A DNA stretch of 64,000 nucleotides from Escherichia phage SP27. Below, piece after piece: positions 7,920 through 19,145 of the stretch. The translations under genes and the position numbers were made by a program. The stretch lies in sequence record LC494302.1; one strand, written 5' to 3'. Every line of letters begins with the position of its first letter. The first letter of the stretch is position 1. Under the pieces are notes generated by a model. The model was given only the letters and a program-made list of their open reading frames with translations, was not told the DNA's origin and searched no databases.

Positions 7920-7957
7920 GCAGTTTACAAATCTTTACAATTGCCGGTATTGACTTA

Positions 7958-7988
7958 TTTTGTCAGTACTGGCATAATGTATTCATTG
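7958..7988 (+). promoter_or_regulatory. class II promoter (TTGACT ... AGTACTGGCATAAT)
   Basis: ATTGACTtattttgtcAGTACTGGCATAAT; no ORF downstream; faces a minus-strand promoter. Confidence 0.45.
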
Positions 7989-8093
7989 GCAGATAAGCCG
8001 TAGCCCATAGGGTGCGGGAGTGTATCTATAGAAAAAGTAGTTTAGTATAGTTACAATTGTGCACCCGGTGGGTTAGCTGTTGTCATGGGGTAT

Positions 8094-14981: not shown

Positions 14982-14987
14982 AAAAAG

Positions 14988-15009
14988 TGGTTGACTTCGG
15001 TCAGCCATT
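14988..15009 (+). terminator. intrinsic terminator (first part of repeated intergenic module)
   Basis: GGTTGAC-TTCG-GTCAGCC hairpin with tetraloop, then TTTTGC. Confidence 0.5.
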
Positions 15010-15112
15010 TTGCTATTATATATTCATTGAGAGATAGCTCACTAGCCCACAGGGTGCAGGAGTGTATCTATTGTATAATGTTTGAGTACTTAAAACTATT
15101 TTTAAAAAAGTA

Positions 15113-15932: not shown

Positions 15933-16112
15933 ATGGCTATCATCGCAAAAACTGAAATCGTTGGTCTGGATTCTATCATCATGACGTTTGAAGATCAAAA
16001 AGGTATGTATGTAGTTTCCTATGGTGATTATGTTCGGGAGTATGAAACGGTAGACGAAGCCTTTGAAAGTTATATTCGCCAGGTGAATAAAGCATACGAC
16101 GACTACCGCTAA
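15933..16112 (+). CDS. hypothetical small protein (59 aa, below ORF-track cutoff)
   Basis: read by hand: MAIIAKTEIVGLDSIIMTFEDQKG...; AAGGA RBS. Confidence 0.45.
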   Translation: MAIIAKTEIVGLDSIIMTFEDQKGMYVVSYGDYVREYETVDEAFESYIRQVNKAYDDYR

Positions 16113-16390: not shown

Positions 16391-16460
16391 ATTCATCACC
16401 CTATACAATGCCAGTACTCAACCGTTTATCTCGTTAGAATGCGTTACAGGACGTTTAACA

Positions 16461-16658
16461 ATGATTAGCATGAAATCAGTACAAAAACAAATAGAAACAT
16501 TATCAAAAATTAAACGTAAACAGTACTCCTTAGAATATACAATCAATGGTAACTATCATCTAATGAAAGAGAATAATTTTATAGTCATTGATGAATCATT
16601 GCAAATCATTAGTATAGTACTGAAAGCATTAATCAATGACAGAAAAAAATTAAAATAA
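16461..16658 (+). CDS. hypothetical protein
   Basis: 65 aa. Confidence 0.45.
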   Translation: MISMKSVQKQIETLSKIKRKQYSLEYTINGNYHLMKENNFIVIDESLQIISIVLKALINDRKKLK

Positions 16659-16662
16659 TCTA

Positions 16663-16691
16663 TTGACAATATCATCCAGTACTGGCATAAT
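16663..16691 (+). promoter_or_regulatory. class II promoter
   Basis: ATTGACAatatcatccAGTACTGGCATAAT; followed by about 300 nt leader with TGATCA repeats. Confidence 0.55.
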
Positions 16692-16989
16692 ACTTACACC
16701 AAGACGAGAACGTCACTAACCCATAGGGTGCACAAATGTAACTGTATAATATTGATCAAAAAATGATCTGATCAATACTTGATCAATTTGCGTAAAGTAG
16801 TATAATTCTATGCAGTTGGTTAGACGAAAGGTTATGATTAGTAGTGCAAGTGTATAAAAATTTTCATGGTGTATCGTTCCGCACATATGGGGATGAATAT
16901 GTGGTATCATGTGGATTGGAAAAAGTAAGAACAAGTAATATTATTGTCGCATTACAGTACTATAGTATTTTTATAATGAGGTTAAAATA

Positions 16990-17247
16990 ATGGCTGTAGG
17001 ATTCGCGAAAGATGGGGCCGAACAAGACGAGATTAACGCAGTGATTCAGGCTGCCGTTAACCACGCTAGAAAGCAAATTAACGCACAAATAGAATCACTG
17101 ATACATTGCCTCGACTGCGGCGATATAATCCCTGAGAAACGACGCCAGGCCGTTAAGGGATGTAAGTACTGCATAACTTGCCAGGAGGATCATGATAGTA
17201 CTTTTAAACGTCCCCCGCGTAATTGTTGGCATAGATCTATGAGATAA
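16990..17247 (+). CDS. TraR/DksA-family C4 zinc-finger protein
   Basis: INAQ...CLDCGDIIPEKRRQAVKGCKYCITCQ matches the TraR core INAH...CEACGNPIPEARRKIFPGVTLCVECQ as I recall it. Confidence 0.75.
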   Translation: MAVGFAKDGAEQDEINAVIQAAVNHARKQINAQIESLIHCLDCGDIIPEKRRQAVKGCKYCITCQEDHDSTFKRPPRNCWHRSMR

Positions 17248-17253
17248 AAAGTA

Positions 17254-17281
17254 TTGACAGTACTGAAAGATAGTTTATAAT
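17254..17281 (+). promoter_or_regulatory. sigma70-like promoter
   Basis: TTGACAgtactgaaagatagttTATAAT. Confidence 0.55.
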
Positions 17282-17310
17282 ATTTTATATCTTAACTGAG
17301 GATTGAAATC

Positions 17311-17667
17311 ATGGGAATACAACATATCACGCGTACTACTGACAATGGCGAGATCACTGGCTATCAAGTACAGGGCAAAGTAGCACAATTGCAGTACTGG
17401 TTTGTTAAACGTGGAATCATTGCACCGGATCTTGATTATGACCGTGTAGCGTTTATTGATTCTCTTTATGTTGATCCTGATAGTCGGGGCAATGGTGAAG
17501 GTAACGAATTAATGAATGCCTTTATTGATGCCGCCGATGATTCAGATTGTATCATCTTAGAATGCGATACGGGAGAAGATAACGCCTTTAATCTTAAAGA
17601 ATGGTACGAAGGTTTCGGATTCGAGGTATTGATAGATAGTGAATATCCTATCATGATTTTATCATAG
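17311..17667 (+). CDS. GNAT-family acetyltransferase-like protein
   Basis: LYVDPDSRGNGEGNELMNAF resembles the acetyl-CoA-binding R/Q-x-x-G-x-G/A motif of GNAT enzymes; 118 aa. Confidence 0.45.
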   Translation: MGIQHITRTTDNGEITGYQVQGKVAQLQYWFVKRGIIAPDLDYDRVAFIDSLYVDPDSRGNGEGNELMNAFIDAADDSDCIILECDTGEDNAFNLKEWYEGFGFEVLIDSEYPIMILS

Positions 17668-17669
17668 TA

Positions 17670-17727
17670 CTTGCATTTAGTTTTCAGTACTGTTATAGTA
17701 CTTACATCAAGGGGAAACATCTTCCCC
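17670..17727 (+). promoter_or_regulatory. class I early promoter plus 5' stem-loop cassette
   Basis: TTGCAT 17670-17675, TATAGT -10; hairpin GGGGAAacatcTTCCCC 17711-17727. Confidence 0.55.
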
Positions 17728-19007: not shown

Positions 19008-19021
19008 AAATAATTGAAAAA

Positions 19022-19043
19022 GGGATTGACTCCGGTCAGTCCC
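19022..19043 (+). terminator. intrinsic terminator (first part of repeated intergenic module)
   Basis: GGGATTGAC-TCCG-GTCAGTCCC hairpin preceded by A-run, followed by TTTGC. Confidence 0.55.
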
Positions 19044-19145
19044 TTTGCTATTATATACGCATAGAAACAAATCAGCCCACCGGGTGCATAAATGTATCTA
19101 TTGTTTGCTGGTGGCTAGTACTGAAAACTATTTTTAAAAAAGTAC

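What the first reader, a model, noticed from the sequence alone, without database searches (positions are those of the whole stretch)
16663..17247. TraR/DksA-type zinc-finger protein behind a 300-nt leader with TGATCA repeats
The 85-aa protein aligns by eye with TraR through the C4 zinc-finger core (CLDCGDIIPEKRRQAVKGCKYCITCQ) and the preceding INA segment. TraR/DksA proteins bind the RNA polymerase secondary channel, so a phage copy is a plausible transcription-reprogramming factor. The class II promoter at 16663 sits about 300 nt upstream, and the leader contains TTGATCAA palindromes (4 GATC in 40 bp at 16750-16790) plus CATATGGGG/ATGTGG repeats, suggesting extra regulation.
Basis: partly seen in the sequence, partly recalled or inferred. 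Interest (0 to 1): 0.5.

Follow-up and report, generated by a model that had tools for sequence, protein, structure and literature searches.

The report
Phage YbiI/TraR-like protein behind inserted cassette
The 85-residue gene is a real, already annotated DksA/TraR-family zinc-finger gene of an E. coli jumbo phage. The "300-nt leader" in front of it is a separate 332-bp insertable cassette with its own two promoters, a conserved folded RNA motif, a pair of GATC-rich operator-like repeats and a 48-codon gene.

Summary
The window comes from an Asteriusvirus, a 121Q/PBECO4-like E. coli jumbo phage. The locus lies in the early region inside the long direct terminal repeat.

**The protein.** ORF 16990-17247 passes Pfam zf-dskA_traR. 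It is closest to E. coli YbiI over its full length, and its model superposes on RNA-polymerase-bound TraR. The family call is therefore right, and GenBank relatives are already labelled "DksA-like zinc-finger protein". The canonical DxxDxA tip is not present (DGAEQD instead). A phage-specific invariant tail, FKRxPRNCWHRSMR, replaces the end of the TraR helix.

**The "leader".** It is not a leader of this gene. The 332 bp are absent from ph0011-type relatives and are flanked by a 10-bp direct repeat. They contain, in order:
- promoter P1;
- one copy of a two-hairpin RNA motif (10 copies in the window, 74 in 239 kb of Rak2-like early regions, clear covariation, not in Rfam);
- two GATCAA-N5-GATC sites that overlap a second promoter, P2;
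- a real 48-aa gene, joined to the zinc-finger gene by a TAATG stop/start overlap.

The same motif-operator-orf48 unit occurs in Erwinia-phage relatives, where the DksA-like gene lies 8 kb away.

**Verdict.** The protein is ordinary. The regulatory anatomy is new and moderately interesting.

The parts
16461..16658 (+). Upstream 65-aa early ORF. In relatives without the cassette it is the gene joined by TAATG to the DksA-like gene.
   Evidence: ORF list; phrog_36844 E 1e-46; in ph0011 it abuts the DksA-like CDS.
16650..16659 (.). Left copy of the 10-bp direct repeat TTAAAATAAT that bounds the 332-bp cassette.
   Evidence: Sequence; alignment with ph0011, which has a single copy and lacks everything between.
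16663..16691 (+). Promoter P1: TTGACA, 17-bp spacer, CATAAT, TG-extended, with CCAGTACTGG in the spacer. Inferred start near 16698.
   Evidence: Promoter scan 11/12. The AGTACTGGCATAAT type has 6 exact copies in the window against 0.02 expected for up to 1 mismatch; 4 of the 6 are followed by the RNA motif.
16694..16750 (+). Copy of a repeated two-hairpin RNA motif. Hairpin 1 is 16703-16714 (GAC-GAGAAC-GUC). Hairpin 2 is 16719-16729 (ACCC-AUA-GGGU). The conserved tail is GC....UGUAaCU.
   Evidence: Covariance model hit 62.6 bits, E 1.6e-13; covariation counts; paralogous copies in the window; no Rfam family.
16754..16768 (.). Site O1, GATCAAAAAATGATC: two GATC sites 11 bp apart.
   Evidence: Exact pattern GATCAANNNWTGATC occurs only here and at O2 in the window: 3 strand-matches against 0.06 expected. 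The same site type sits at the same place in 121Q, Hallingskeid and L027-L030.
16769..16785 (.). Site O2, TGATCAATACTTGATCA: a perfect 7-3-7 palindrome with two GATC sites 11 bp apart. It overlaps the -35 of P2.
   Evidence: Sequence. In relatives O2 overlaps the -10 or the +1 region of P2.
16779..16806 (+). Promoter-like site P2: TTGATC, 16-bp spacer, TATAAT.
   Evidence: Promoter scan 10/12; the -10 is conserved in 121Q, Turkey3 and EC.P1.
16844..16990 (+). orf48: a 48-aa gene with a GTG start and AAAGG 12 nt upstream. Its stop overlaps the next start (TAATG).
   Evidence: phrog_38664 E 7e-36. The protein is conserved at 63-65% identity across alleles although this part of the DNA differs far more than the flanks. 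Homologues of 49-62 aa occur in other genera. AlphaFold pLDDT 89, four strands plus a helix.
16982..16991 (.). Right copy of the direct repeat TTAAAATAAT. It contains the orf48 stop and the first two bases of the DksA-like ATG.
   Evidence: Sequence; alignment.
16990..17247 (+). 85-aa DksA/TraR-family (YbiI-like) C4 zinc-finger protein. GAGG lies 8 nt upstream of the ATG.
17254..17281 (+). Next consensus promoter (TTGACA, 16-bp spacer, TATAAT) for the GNAT acetyltransferase gene 17311-17667. No terminator-like site lies between it and the zinc-finger gene.
   Evidence: Promoter and terminator scan; Pfam Acetyltransf_1.

Best explanation
The locus is two units joined together in the early, host-RNA-polymerase-transcribed terminal-repeat region of an Asteriusvirus jumbo phage.

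**Unit 1: the zinc-finger gene.** It encodes an 85-aa YbiI/TraR-like protein. Its most likely action is to insert its N-terminal helix into the secondary channel of E. coli RNA polymerase. The helix carries the conserved tip KDGAEQ with acidic residues D8, E11, D13 and E14. The zinc-ribbon domain would dock on the rim through R51/R52, the equivalents of TraR R48/R49. [quoted passage not shown] This step is inferred from homology and fold.

**Unit 2: a 332-bp moron-like cassette.** It lies between the upstream 65-aa gene and the zinc-finger gene and is bounded by the repeat TTAAAATAAT.
- P1 transcribes a short two-hairpin RNA motif. The motif marks many early transcripts of Rak2-like phages; its role is unknown. 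Candidate roles are a protein-recognised element for 5'-end stability or processing, or an antitermination element.
- Next come two GATCAA-N5-GATC sites that overlap promoter P2. They most likely bind a factor, possibly in a Dam-methylation-sensitive way, that gates P2.
- Last is the 48-aa gene. Its stop overlaps the zinc-finger start.

In phages that carry the cassette, the zinc-finger gene is therefore co-transcribed from P1 and P2, and its translation is coupled to orf48. In phages without it, the gene is coupled to the 65-aa gene in the same way.
For: **Identity of the phage and region**
- The 1.3-kb query is 99.2% identical to Asteriusvirus records. It lies in annotated direct terminal repeats and occurs at two places in several records.
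- Rak2-like phages use RpoD-like early promoters (PMC5259590).

**Protein**
- Pfam scores above its gathering cut-off.
- The YbiI model NF008243 matches residues 1-72 at 81 bits.
- PDB sequence matches: YbiI E 2e-12, TraR E 1e-5.
- The model has helix 8-32, a zinc ribbon, and helices 49-54 and 62-71. Foldseek places it on TraR in the RNAP complex 6n57_M with TM 0.66.
- M1, A2, G4, R27, four Cys, R51 and R52 are invariant, and K7, D8, G9, A10 and Q12 nearly invariant, in 58 homologues.
- YbiI rescues a dksA deletion when overexpressed (PMC2613031). Five phage TraR homologues bind RNAP (PMC9239242).

**Cassette**
- Presence/absence alignment with the 10-bp repeat.
- P1 plus the motif has paralogues in the window.
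- The motif occurs 10 times against 0.36 expected.
- 16 of 22 copies have a stem of at least 3 bp in fixed register, against 2.1 +/- 1.3 in shuffles; there are 10 different stem sequences.
- The covariance model finds 74 copies. 91.8% of cells are paired against 72.7% shuffled and at most 51% when slid. The three inner pairs of helix 1 show 20-35 double-sided changes.
- The operator pattern is unique to this spot in the window.
- The order motif, O1, P2/O2, orf48 homologue recurs in 121Q, Turkey3 and EC.P1, in Hallingskeid and in four metagenomic contigs. O2 always overlaps a core element of P2.
Against: - No experiment exists on this protein subfamily.
- The DxxDxA motif is not met. The tip reads D8-G-A-E11-Q-D13, and with the YbiI spacing only the 'DxA' part aligns. 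PMC9239242 reports that homologues lacking the motif are weaker or inactive.
- The model has moderate confidence (pLDDT 73), and residues 72-85 are unstructured.
- The covariation alignment was fitted to the model structure, and many copies are related by duplication.
- The orf48 homologue in phage CBB has neither the motif nor the operators.
- orf48 has no recognisable DNA-binding fold; the best Foldseek E-value is 0.8. The operator-binding factor is therefore unidentified.
- The direction of the indel, insertion or deletion, is not resolved.
Confidence: 0.6

Rival explanations
1. The GATC cluster works purely through host or phage Dam methylation and SeqA, with no sequence-specific repressor. 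Pairs of GATC sites exactly 11 bp apart would be bound by SeqA when hemimethylated after replication. Alternatively, methylation would alter recognition of P2 directly. Either way, P2 (orf48 plus the DksA-like gene) would be tied to the replication state of the phage DNA. Known parallels, from my own knowledge, are the IS10 pIN promoter, P1 cre and Mu mom.
For: - GATC is the invariant core of every repeat, while the 5' flanking base varies (T, C or G).
- Two pairs with 11-bp spacing recur in every variant read.
- The cluster is the densest in the window.
- Asteriusvirus and other Rak2-like phages encode N6-adenine methyltransferases (PMC11895373; PMC5259590).
- All hosts are Dam-positive Enterobacterales (established knowledge).
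Against: - The two bases after GATC are also conserved (GATCAA), and O2 is a perfect 17-bp palindrome. Methylation alone does not require either.
- The methylation status of these sites is unknown.
- The specificity of the phage methyltransferase is unknown.
Confidence: 0.3
2. The zinc-finger protein is not an RNA-polymerase secondary-channel regulator. Like several C4 zinc-finger 'DksA/TraR-family' proteins it would have another target. The conserved basic Cys/His/Trp tail FKRxPRNCWHRSMR might bind nucleic acid or another host protein. Or the protein might act only in a complex with a small partner protein, as TraR of phage VP882 does with QisA.
For: - No canonical DxxDxA.
- PMC9239242 states that not all C4 zinc-finger proteins act like DksA.
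- The tail is invariant across Asteriusvirus and T4-like phages and differs from the bacterial YbiI tail GYNRRGSKDSQLR.
- The gene's start overlaps the stop of a small upstream gene in both arrangements.
- The VP882 TraR-QisA complex is a precedent (bioRxiv 10.64898/2026.07.27.740977).
Against: - The fold, the RR pair and the long N-terminal helix with an acidic, strongly conserved tip are what secondary-channel binding needs.
- YbiI complements a dksA deletion at high level.
- The upstream coupled gene differs between phages (orf48 or the 65-aa ORF), so a dedicated partner is unlikely.
Confidence: 0.25
3. The 'RNA motif' is a DNA-level element, for example a protein-binding palindrome ACCC-N3-GGGT placed downstream of early promoters. 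Or it is merely a remnant of duplicated promoter modules with no function of its own.
For: - Hairpin 2 never varies in its three C-G pairs, so it gives no covariation support.
- Copies are partly related by duplication: 78-83% identity among window copies.
- The hairpins are only 4 bp long.
Against: - Hairpin 1 has 10 different complementary stem sequences at a fixed register and 20-35 double-sided changes per inner pair.
- In all 22 copies read in the window, Muenster and Hallingskeid, the motif lies on the transcribed strand. In all but one (a copy 29 nt from the end of the Muenster record) it follows a -10 element by a fixed short distance of roughly 20-28 nt.
- It is kept across four or more genera while the flanks diverge.
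Confidence: 0.15

Closest known systems
E. coli YbiI (PDB 2KGO; NCBIfam NF008243, DksA/TraR family C4-type zinc finger protein)
   Same: - Best sequence match, over the full length: residues 1-74, E 2e-12.
- Same N-terminus, MA.G[FW]A.D.A..[DE][EQ]IN.
- Same CxxC-N17-CxxC spacing and the same RR pair.
- Bacterial 88-aa homologues are 49-62% identical over 81-86% of the query.
   Different: - The score of 81 bits is below the 96-bit equivalog cut-off.
- The phage clade has E11 where YbiI has V11.
- It has one extra residue before the first Cys.
- Its invariant tail is different: FKRxPRNCWHRSMR instead of GYNRRGSKDSQLR.
- YbiI itself has no established function.
TraR of the F plasmid and its phage homologues (lambda Orf73, P2 Orf82, VP882 Orf61)
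   Same: - Small size; a single N-terminal helix plus a C4 zinc ribbon plus a short C-terminal helix.
- R51/R52 correspond to TraR R48/R49.
- The model superposes on RNAP-bound TraR (TM 0.66).
- Encoded by a mobile element or phage and expressed early.
- Expected to work without ppGpp.
   Different: - Only 26-27% identity.
- The DxxDxA tip is replaced by DGAEQD.
- The C-terminal helix is shorter and followed by a Pro-Pro break and a basic tail.
- The phage is virulent (a jumbo myovirus; close homologues are also in T4-like phages), not a temperate phage or plasmid.
DksA
   Same: Same Pfam zinc-finger family and the same presumed binding site on RNAP.
   Different: DksA is 151 aa with a two-helix coiled coil and ppGpp-contacting residues. 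Here there is one helix and no such residues. The NCBIfam DksA model scores only 13.9 bits.
Dam-regulated phage and transposon promoters (Mu mom with OxyR, IS10 pIN, P1 cre) and the TGATCA/G clusters of the P1 pac site. These are recalled from my own knowledge, not tested here.
   Same: A cluster of GATC (TGATCA-type) sites overlaps or adjoins a promoter in a phage of a Dam-positive host.
   Different: - The sites here are GATCAA units in 11-bp pairs.
- They sit 12 kb inside the terminal repeat, not at a genome end.
- No OxyR-like or pacase partner is identified, and methylation dependence is untested.
Promoter-proximal phage RNA elements (lambda nut boxB, HK022 put) and the DTR-encoded ncRNAs of the related jumbo phage PA5oct
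   Same: - Short hairpins with covarying stems and purine-rich loops directly after early promoters.
- Some copies are ORF-less promoter-to-terminator units.
- PA5oct transcribes two abundant ncRNAs from its terminal repeat (PMC7318152).
   Different: No sequence or Rfam similarity. The hairpins are only 4 bp. No N-like protein or antitermination evidence exists, so the function is unknown.
Morons (self-contained promoter-plus-gene insertions in phage genomes)
   Same: A small gene with its own promoters lies between two adjacent genes, is present or absent among close relatives, and has short direct repeats at its boundaries.
   Different: - Classical morons carry their own terminator and sit in the late regions of temperate phages.
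- This one has no terminator.
- It is spliced so that the stop/start overlap with the downstream gene is kept.

Membership tests
DksA/TraR C4-type zinc finger (Pfam PF01258) | Profile match above the curated gathering score | tested here: met
   41.2 bits against 24.9, E 1.6e-10, residues 39-68; phrog_54 'DksA-like zinc-finger protein' E 1e-18.
DksA/TraR C4-type zinc finger (Pfam PF01258) | Four cysteines as CxxC-N17-CxxC | tested here: met
   C40, C43, C61 and C64 are invariant in 58 homologues.
TraR-type RNAP secondary-channel regulators (as defined functionally in PMC9239242) | DxxDxA motif at the tip of the N-terminal helix | tested here: not met
   The tip is F5-A-K-D8-G-A10-E11-Q-D13. 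Only 'DxA' (D8, A10) aligns when the YbiI spacing to the first Cys is used. An alternative register gives DxxExD.
TraR-type RNAP secondary-channel regulators (as defined functionally in PMC9239242) | Arg pair in the globular domain (TraR R48, R49) that contacts the rim helices and beta' Si3 | tested here: met
   PEKRRQ aligns with TraR PEARRK; R51 and R52 are invariant.
TraR-type RNAP secondary-channel regulators (as defined functionally in PMC9239242) | TraR-like three-element fold: N-terminal helix, zinc-ribbon globule, C-terminal helix | tested here: met
   AlphaFold helices 8-32, 49-54 and 62-71. Foldseek on 6n57_M gives TM 0.66, rmsd 3.2 A over 67 columns, probability 1.00. Model pLDDT is only 73, and the C-terminal helix is short and followed by an unstructured tail.
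TraR-type RNAP secondary-channel regulators (as defined functionally in PMC9239242) | Binds RNAP and changes initiation at rRNA and r-protein promoters; complements a dksA deletion | not testable with these tools
   Needs biochemistry and genetics. The only indirect support is that YbiI rescues a dksA deletion when overexpressed (data not shown in PMC2613031).
YbiI equivalog (NCBIfam NF008243) | Score at or above the 96-bit cut-off | tested here: not met
   81.4 bits over residues 1-72 of the protein and 1-71 of the 88-position profile. The C-terminal tail differs.
Rfam RNA families (any) | Covariance-model match for the leader or motif | tested here: not met
   No match at gathering score in the 64 kb. 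Only chance-level matches (E at least 1.4) in 16600-17050.
Dam/SeqA-controlled promoter | At least two GATC sites on the same helical face near or in the promoter | tested here: met
   Pairs at 16754/16765 and 16770/16781, each 11 bp apart, with the second pair overlapping the -35 of P2. The same 11-bp pairs occur in all the variants read.
Dam/SeqA-controlled promoter | Promoter activity depends on the methylation state | not testable with these tools
   Needs dam and seqA hosts or methylome data.

The most novel reading that the evidence does not exclude
The first ~55 nt transcribed from P1 belong to an undescribed family of structured RNA. It has a variable-stem hairpin with a purine-rich loop, an invariant RCCC-AYN-GGGU hairpin and a GC....UGUAUCUAU tail. 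The motif sits a fixed short distance downstream of early sigma70 promoters throughout Rak2-like jumbo phages. Some copies are stand-alone, roughly 100-nt promoter-to-terminator RNA genes that converge on the early operons. It could be the recognition element of a phage-wide early-transcript control system acting on stability, processing or antitermination. In this cassette it is combined with a methylation-sensitive GATCAA operator that times expression of orf48 and of the polymerase-binding zinc-finger protein.
Probability: 0.45. Interest if true: 0.6.

Novelty: new member of a known kind. Interest (0 to 1): 0.4.

Why it matters
**The protein.** It adds a virulent-phage branch to the TraR/DksA story. 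This branch occurs in jumbo Asteriusvirus and in T4-like phages, has an altered tip and carries an invariant extra tail. If it binds the secondary channel without DxxDxA, it would widen the rules for what makes such a factor active.

**The cassette.** It shows how a small gene with its own control region can be spliced in front of an early gene while the stop/start overlap is kept.

**The RNA motif.** A recurrent, covarying 5' RNA motif (74 copies in 239 kb) is a concrete and cheaply testable handle on early-gene control in Rak2-like jumbo phages. None of the jumbo-phage genome papers I read describes such an element.

Tried and rejected
- **Rfam.** A gathering-score scan of the window and a permissive scan of 16600-17050 found nothing relevant. 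There are no tRNA or tmRNA genes.
- **RNAalifold on a plain MAFFT alignment.** It recovered only hairpin 2, because hairpin 1 was mis-registered. A second MAFFT attempt was also mis-registered. I solved this with a six-sequence same-geometry seed and a covariance model.
- **Longer-range pairings.** I looked for pairings between AGAUA, AGACG or AUAG and UAUCU, CGUCU or CUAU, and for GGGUG with CGCCC. They fit some copies but not in a consistent register, so I do not claim them.
- **Folding the whole P1 leader.** The z-score is only -1.76, so there is no strong global structure.
- **orf48 as the operator-binding protein.** The model is confident (pLDDT 89), but no PDB fold match has E below 0.8. 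There is no support for or against.
- **The search for related loci with the orf48 alignment.** It returned only 121Q from IMG/VR.
- **Scanning IMG/VR for TGATCAANNNTTGATCA.** It was uninformative.
- **P1 pac-like packaging site.** Rejected: the cluster lies about 12 kb inside a terminal repeat of about 20-25 kb, not at an end.
- **The 'CATATGGGG/ATGTGG repeats'.** Rejected as a regulatory feature: they are coding and not conserved at the DNA level.
Full report
**Where the window comes from**

Bases 16400-17700 are 99.2% identical to Escherichia phages BAU.Micro_ELP-22 and SHEFM2K. They are 89-99% identical to 121Q, PBECO4 and other members of the genus Asteriusvirus, which are jumbo myoviruses of 348-386 kb. 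In records assembled with both ends the locus occurs twice and lies under a feature called 'Direct Terminal Repeats'. A terminal repeat of 20.7 kb has been measured for an Asteriusvirus (PMC11895373). Rak2-like phages have no RNA polymerase of their own reported. Their early regions, in and next to the terminal repeat, carry RpoD-like promoters in front of many short genes (PMC5259590). The same pattern is seen here: seven perfect TTGACA-16-TATAAT sites lie in 14-20 kb, all on the + strand.

**Check of the observation**

- The 85-aa ORF at 16990-17247, the promoter at 16663-16691 (TTGACA, 17-bp spacer, CATAAT, TG-extended) and the four GATC sites (16754, 16765, 16770, 16781) are all there.
- The GATC cluster is the densest in the window. 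Only 1 of 300 dinucleotide-preserving shuffles reaches four sites in 31 bp.
- TTGATCAA occurs only at 16752 and 16779.
- The 327 nt between the promoter and the ATG are not an untranslated leader. They contain a second promoter-like site (16779-16806) and a 48-aa ORF (16844-16990). That ORF is annotated in 121Q as gp293 and forms its own PHROG.
- The 'CATATGGGG/ATGTGG repeats' are codons of that ORF and are not kept in the 121Q allele.

**The zinc-finger protein**

The family call holds.
- Pfam zf-dskA_traR scores 41.2 bits against a cut-off of 24.9.
- The best NCBIfam model is the YbiI model NF008243. It matches residues 1-72 at 81.4 bits, below the 96-bit equivalog cut-off. The TraR subfamily model follows at 52.5 bits, below its 59.7 cut-off.
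- Against solved structures the order is the same: YbiI (2kgo) E 2e-12 over residues 1-74, and TraR (6n57, 5w1s) E 1e-5 over residues 18-71.
- An AlphaFold model from 58 homologues (pLDDT 73) has a long N-terminal helix (8-32), a zinc ribbon, and helices 49-54 and 62-71, then an unstructured tail. Foldseek places it on TraR in its RNA polymerase complex with TM 0.66 (normalised to TraR), rmsd 3.2 A and probability 1.00.

The homologues fall into two groups.
- One group is 84-87-aa phage proteins, 62-99% identical. They occur in Asteriusvirus and in T4-like phages (Citrobacter phage Moon, Yersinia phages MHG19 and fHe-Yen9-01, Escherichia phage RZ, Klebsiella and Edwardsiella phages). All end in the invariant tail FKRxPRNCWHRSMR.
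- The other group is 88-aa bacterial YbiI proteins, 49-62% identical over 81-86% of the query, ending in GYNRRGSKDSQLR.

Both groups share the N-terminus MA.G[FW]AKDGA.Q. In the 58 sequences K7, D8, G9, A10 and Q12 are nearly invariant, and R51 and R52 are invariant.

Three features define a working TraR-type factor according to Gopalkrishnan et al. (PMC9239242).
- The Arg pair (TraR R48/R49) is present.
- A C-terminal helix is present but short.
- The DxxDxA tip is not present as such. If the distance to the first Cys is used as in YbiI, D8 and A10 match TraR D6 and A8, and F5 replaces D3. In another register the phage clade reads D8xxE11xD13.

The same paper notes that homologues with incomplete motifs were weaker, and that some zinc-finger 'homologues' without the motif do not work at all. 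On the other side, YbiI was reported to rescue the amino-acid auxotrophy of a dksA deletion when overexpressed (PMC2613031).

My reading is that the protein most likely binds the secondary channel of host RNA polymerase early in infection and shifts initiation, as lambda Orf73 does. This is inference from fold and conserved residues. I put it at about 0.6.

**The 'leader' is a cassette**

In ph0011 the 65-aa gene (window 16461-16658) abuts the DksA-like gene with the overlap TAATG, and the 332 bp are missing. phAPEC6 and UE-S1 show the same 75% two-piece match. In the window the segment is bounded by TTAAAATAAT at 16650-16659 and 16982-16991; ph0011 has one copy. The TAATG overlap is rebuilt at the right end, now between orf48 and the DksA-like gene. 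About 26 of 40 matching records carry the cassette. Between the window type and the 121Q type, the flanks and the first ~100 bp of the cassette are nearly identical. The central ~190 bp are highly diverged at the DNA level, yet the orf48 protein stays 63-65% identical. orf48 is therefore a real gene, and the middle of the cassette has been exchanged as a block. I could not decide whether the polymorphism arose by insertion or by deletion between the repeats.

**First element: a repeated structured RNA motif**

P1 and the next ~55 nt have paralogues in the window at 10553-10485, 8124-8046 and 5964-5910, all on the minus strand. The core AACCCANNGGGTG, allowing one mismatch, occurs 10 times in the window against 0.36 expected, always within the first 25 kb. 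It also occurs in the terminal repeat of Klebsiella phage Muenster (Alcyoneusvirus) and in the first 12 kb of Erwinia phage Hallingskeid.

All 22 copies read in these three sources lie on the transcribed strand. In all but one (a copy 29 nt from the end of the Muenster record) the box follows a -10 hexamer by a fixed short distance of roughly 20-28 nt. Often the promoter is built into a terminator hairpin, as in GGGATTGACTCCGGTCAGTCCCTTTGCTATTAT.

Between the promoter and the box there is a 3-5-bp hairpin whose stem differs from copy to copy while staying complementary. Examples are GGC/GCC, GCC/GGC, GAC/GTC, AGC/GCT, CGC/GCG, AGTC/GACT, AGCA/TGCT, TGAG/CTCA and ACCAC/GTGGT. The loop is purine-rich (GAGAAC, GAGAAA, AGAUAA, AGAACAA).
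- 16 of 22 copies have such a stem at a fixed register, against 2.1 +/- 1.3 in shuffles (maximum 8 in 2000).
- A covariance model built from six window copies found 74 copies in 239 kb of early regions. These came from the window, Muenster, Hallingskeid and IMG/VR contigs, some of whose lengths match the RaK2, GAP32, CBB and 121Q genomes.
- On that alignment 91.8% of cells pair, against 72.7% in shuffles (0 of 500 reach it) and at most 51% with slid partners.
- The three inner pairs of hairpin 1 have 20-35 double-sided changes among 70 distinct sequences.

There are caveats. The alignment was fitted to the model, copies are related by duplication, and hairpin 2 (RCCC-AYN-GGGU) hardly varies. 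Rfam has no such family. An exact pattern search found the motif in IMG/VR in eight jumbo contigs of 345-378 kb, one 109-kb contig and three 10-14-kb fragments.

What follows the motif differs between copies.
- The minus-strand copies run into an intrinsic terminator after about 100 nt with no ORF. An example is 10517 to 10400, whose terminator stem is GGGGAG...CUCCCC.
- The + strand copies at 15046, 19076 and 22073 are followed by a second promoter, a hairpin and a gene.

The related jumbo phage PA5oct is known from RNA-seq to make two abundant non-coding RNAs from its terminal repeat (PMC7318152). None of the Rak2-like or related jumbo-phage genome papers I read describes this motif. The function is open. 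The invariant box argues for recognition by a protein. Its position a few nucleotides from the 5' end fits a stability or processing element, or an antitermination element.

**Second element: the GATC cluster read as paired sites on promoter P2**

The four GATC sites form two units:
- O1, GATCAAAAAATGATC (16754-16768);
- O2, TGATCAATACTTGATCA (16769-16785), a perfect 7-3-7 palindrome.

In each unit the two GATC sites are 11 bp apart. O2 covers the -35 (TTGATC) of P2. The pattern GATCAANNNWTGATC matches nowhere else in the window exactly (0.06 expected), and matches with two mismatches are at chance level.

The 121Q-type allele has O1 at the same place, a half-site on the -35, and a perfect O2 (TGATCAAATCTTGATCA) just after the -10 of P2.

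In Erwinia phage Hallingskeid only 53 nt of the 331-nt query are recognisably similar by blastn. Yet the same order is found there: terminator/promoter, RNA motif, O1 (GATCAAGAAATGATC), a P2 of TTGACT-17-AATAAT whose -10 lies inside O2 (GATCAATAATTGATC), a Shine-Dalgarno sequence, and a 60-aa gene. That gene is a homologue of orf48. Four further metagenomic variants (L027-L030) show the same arrangement with small differences in the spacers.

The Hallingskeid DksA-like gene, which has the same KDGAEQ tip and RNCWHRSMR tail, is 8 kb away. The GATCAA sites and the motif therefore belong to the orf48 unit, not to the zinc-finger gene. The orf48 homologue of phage CBB (unannotated, 49 aa) has a plain promoter and no such sites, so the link is not absolute.

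Two readings remain, and they are not exclusive.
- **A site-specific factor.** The bases after GATC are conserved, and O2 is a perfect palindrome that always overlaps a core promoter element.
- **Dam methylation and SeqA.** GATC is the only fully invariant part, the 11-bp pairs put both sites on one face of the helix, and these phages encode adenine methyltransferases.

The obvious candidate for a self-regulating protein, orf48, gives a confident model of four strands and one helix (pLDDT 89). It has no structural neighbour (best E 0.8), so nothing can be said either way.

**How the pieces work together (inferred)**

No terminator-like site was found between 16692 and 17281. Transcripts from P1 (carrying the motif) and from P2 (lacking it) should therefore run through orf48 and the DksA-like gene and on into the GNAT acetyltransferase gene, which also has its own perfect promoter at 17254.
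- orf48 has a weak start: GTG, or TTG in other alleles, 12 nt after AAAGG.
- The DksA-like gene has GAGG 8 nt before its ATG, inside the end of orf48.

In cassette-bearing phages the zinc-finger protein is thus placed under two extra promoters and whatever controls P2. In cassette-free phages it depends on upstream promoters only.

**Novelty and score**

- The protein is a new member of a known and already annotated kind.
- Three things are not in the records or papers I could read: its YbiI-like subtype with an altered tip and invariant tail, the insertable cassette, and the RNA motif family.
- None of this overturns anything.
- The RNA motif is the part most worth a follow-up.
- Overall interest is 0.4.

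Noticed in passing
whole window, e.g. 16677-16684, 17258-17265, 17392-17399: The palindrome AGTACT, often extended to CAGTACTG, occurs 270 times in 64 kb. That is 12.6 times the mononucleotide expectation. CAGTAC, GTACTG and AGTACT are the three most over-represented hexamers. It lies in promoter spacers, before terminators (TTCAGTACTGAAAAA) and inside ORFs. Only 5 copies fall in 32-40 kb.
   Followed up: partly
window 1-24000 versus 24001-64000: GATC density is about 4 per kb in the first 24 kb (terminal-repeat and early region). It is only about 1.3 per kb in the rest, roughly three-fold below expectation. GATC avoidance therefore applies to the non-early part only.
   Followed up: partly
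window 14984-15019, 19019-19054, and upstream of 22073 and 24324: A G+C-rich terminator hairpin doubles as a promoter: AAAGGGATTGACTCCGGTCAGTCCCTTTGCTATTATAT. The -35 TTGACT lies in the stem and the -10 TATTAT lies where the T-tract would be. Each one is followed by the RNA motif. The same design occurs in Muenster and Hallingskeid.
   Followed up: partly
window 10553-10400(-), 8124-~7990(-), 5964-~5830(-), 6180-~6060(-); 7950-8034(+): These are ORF-less promoter-plus-RNA-motif units, mostly on the minus strand and converging on + strand genes. The unit at 10553-10400 ends in an intrinsic terminator that also has a T-run on the + strand, so it looks bidirectional. The copies at 8004(+) and 8072(-) face each other and overlap. 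They are candidate small RNA genes.
   Followed up: partly
L026 692-841 (Pectobacterium phage CBB, NC_041878 16896-17045): A 49-aa homologue of orf48 (MRVLKSHNDIIFATYGDCYMVKKGRMKIVCNNPVIALYYYCKLLSENIK) is not annotated in the RefSeq record. Its stop overlaps the start of gp043 (ATGA).
   Followed up: yes
window 15933-16112: The neighbouring 59-aa ORF contains MYVVSYGDY, which resembles the GEYVVSYG core of the 121Q-type orf48 allele (GDEYVVSCG in the window allele). The early small genes may include distant paralogues of one fold.
   Followed up: no
window 17264 onward, compared with PBECO4 and the Salmonella SD phages: PBECO4-type relatives match the query only up to about 17264. The GNAT acetyltransferase region after the DksA-like gene is therefore replaced or diverged in them. 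This is another mosaic boundary directly at the promoter at 17254.
   Followed up: no
protein residues 59-85 (window 17164-17244): The C-terminal 27 residues alone match a separate PHROG (phrog_25948, E 4e-11). A T4-like phage (TH58) has a tblastn match to residues 60-85 only. The tail may therefore also exist as a separate or truncated ORF.
   Followed up: no
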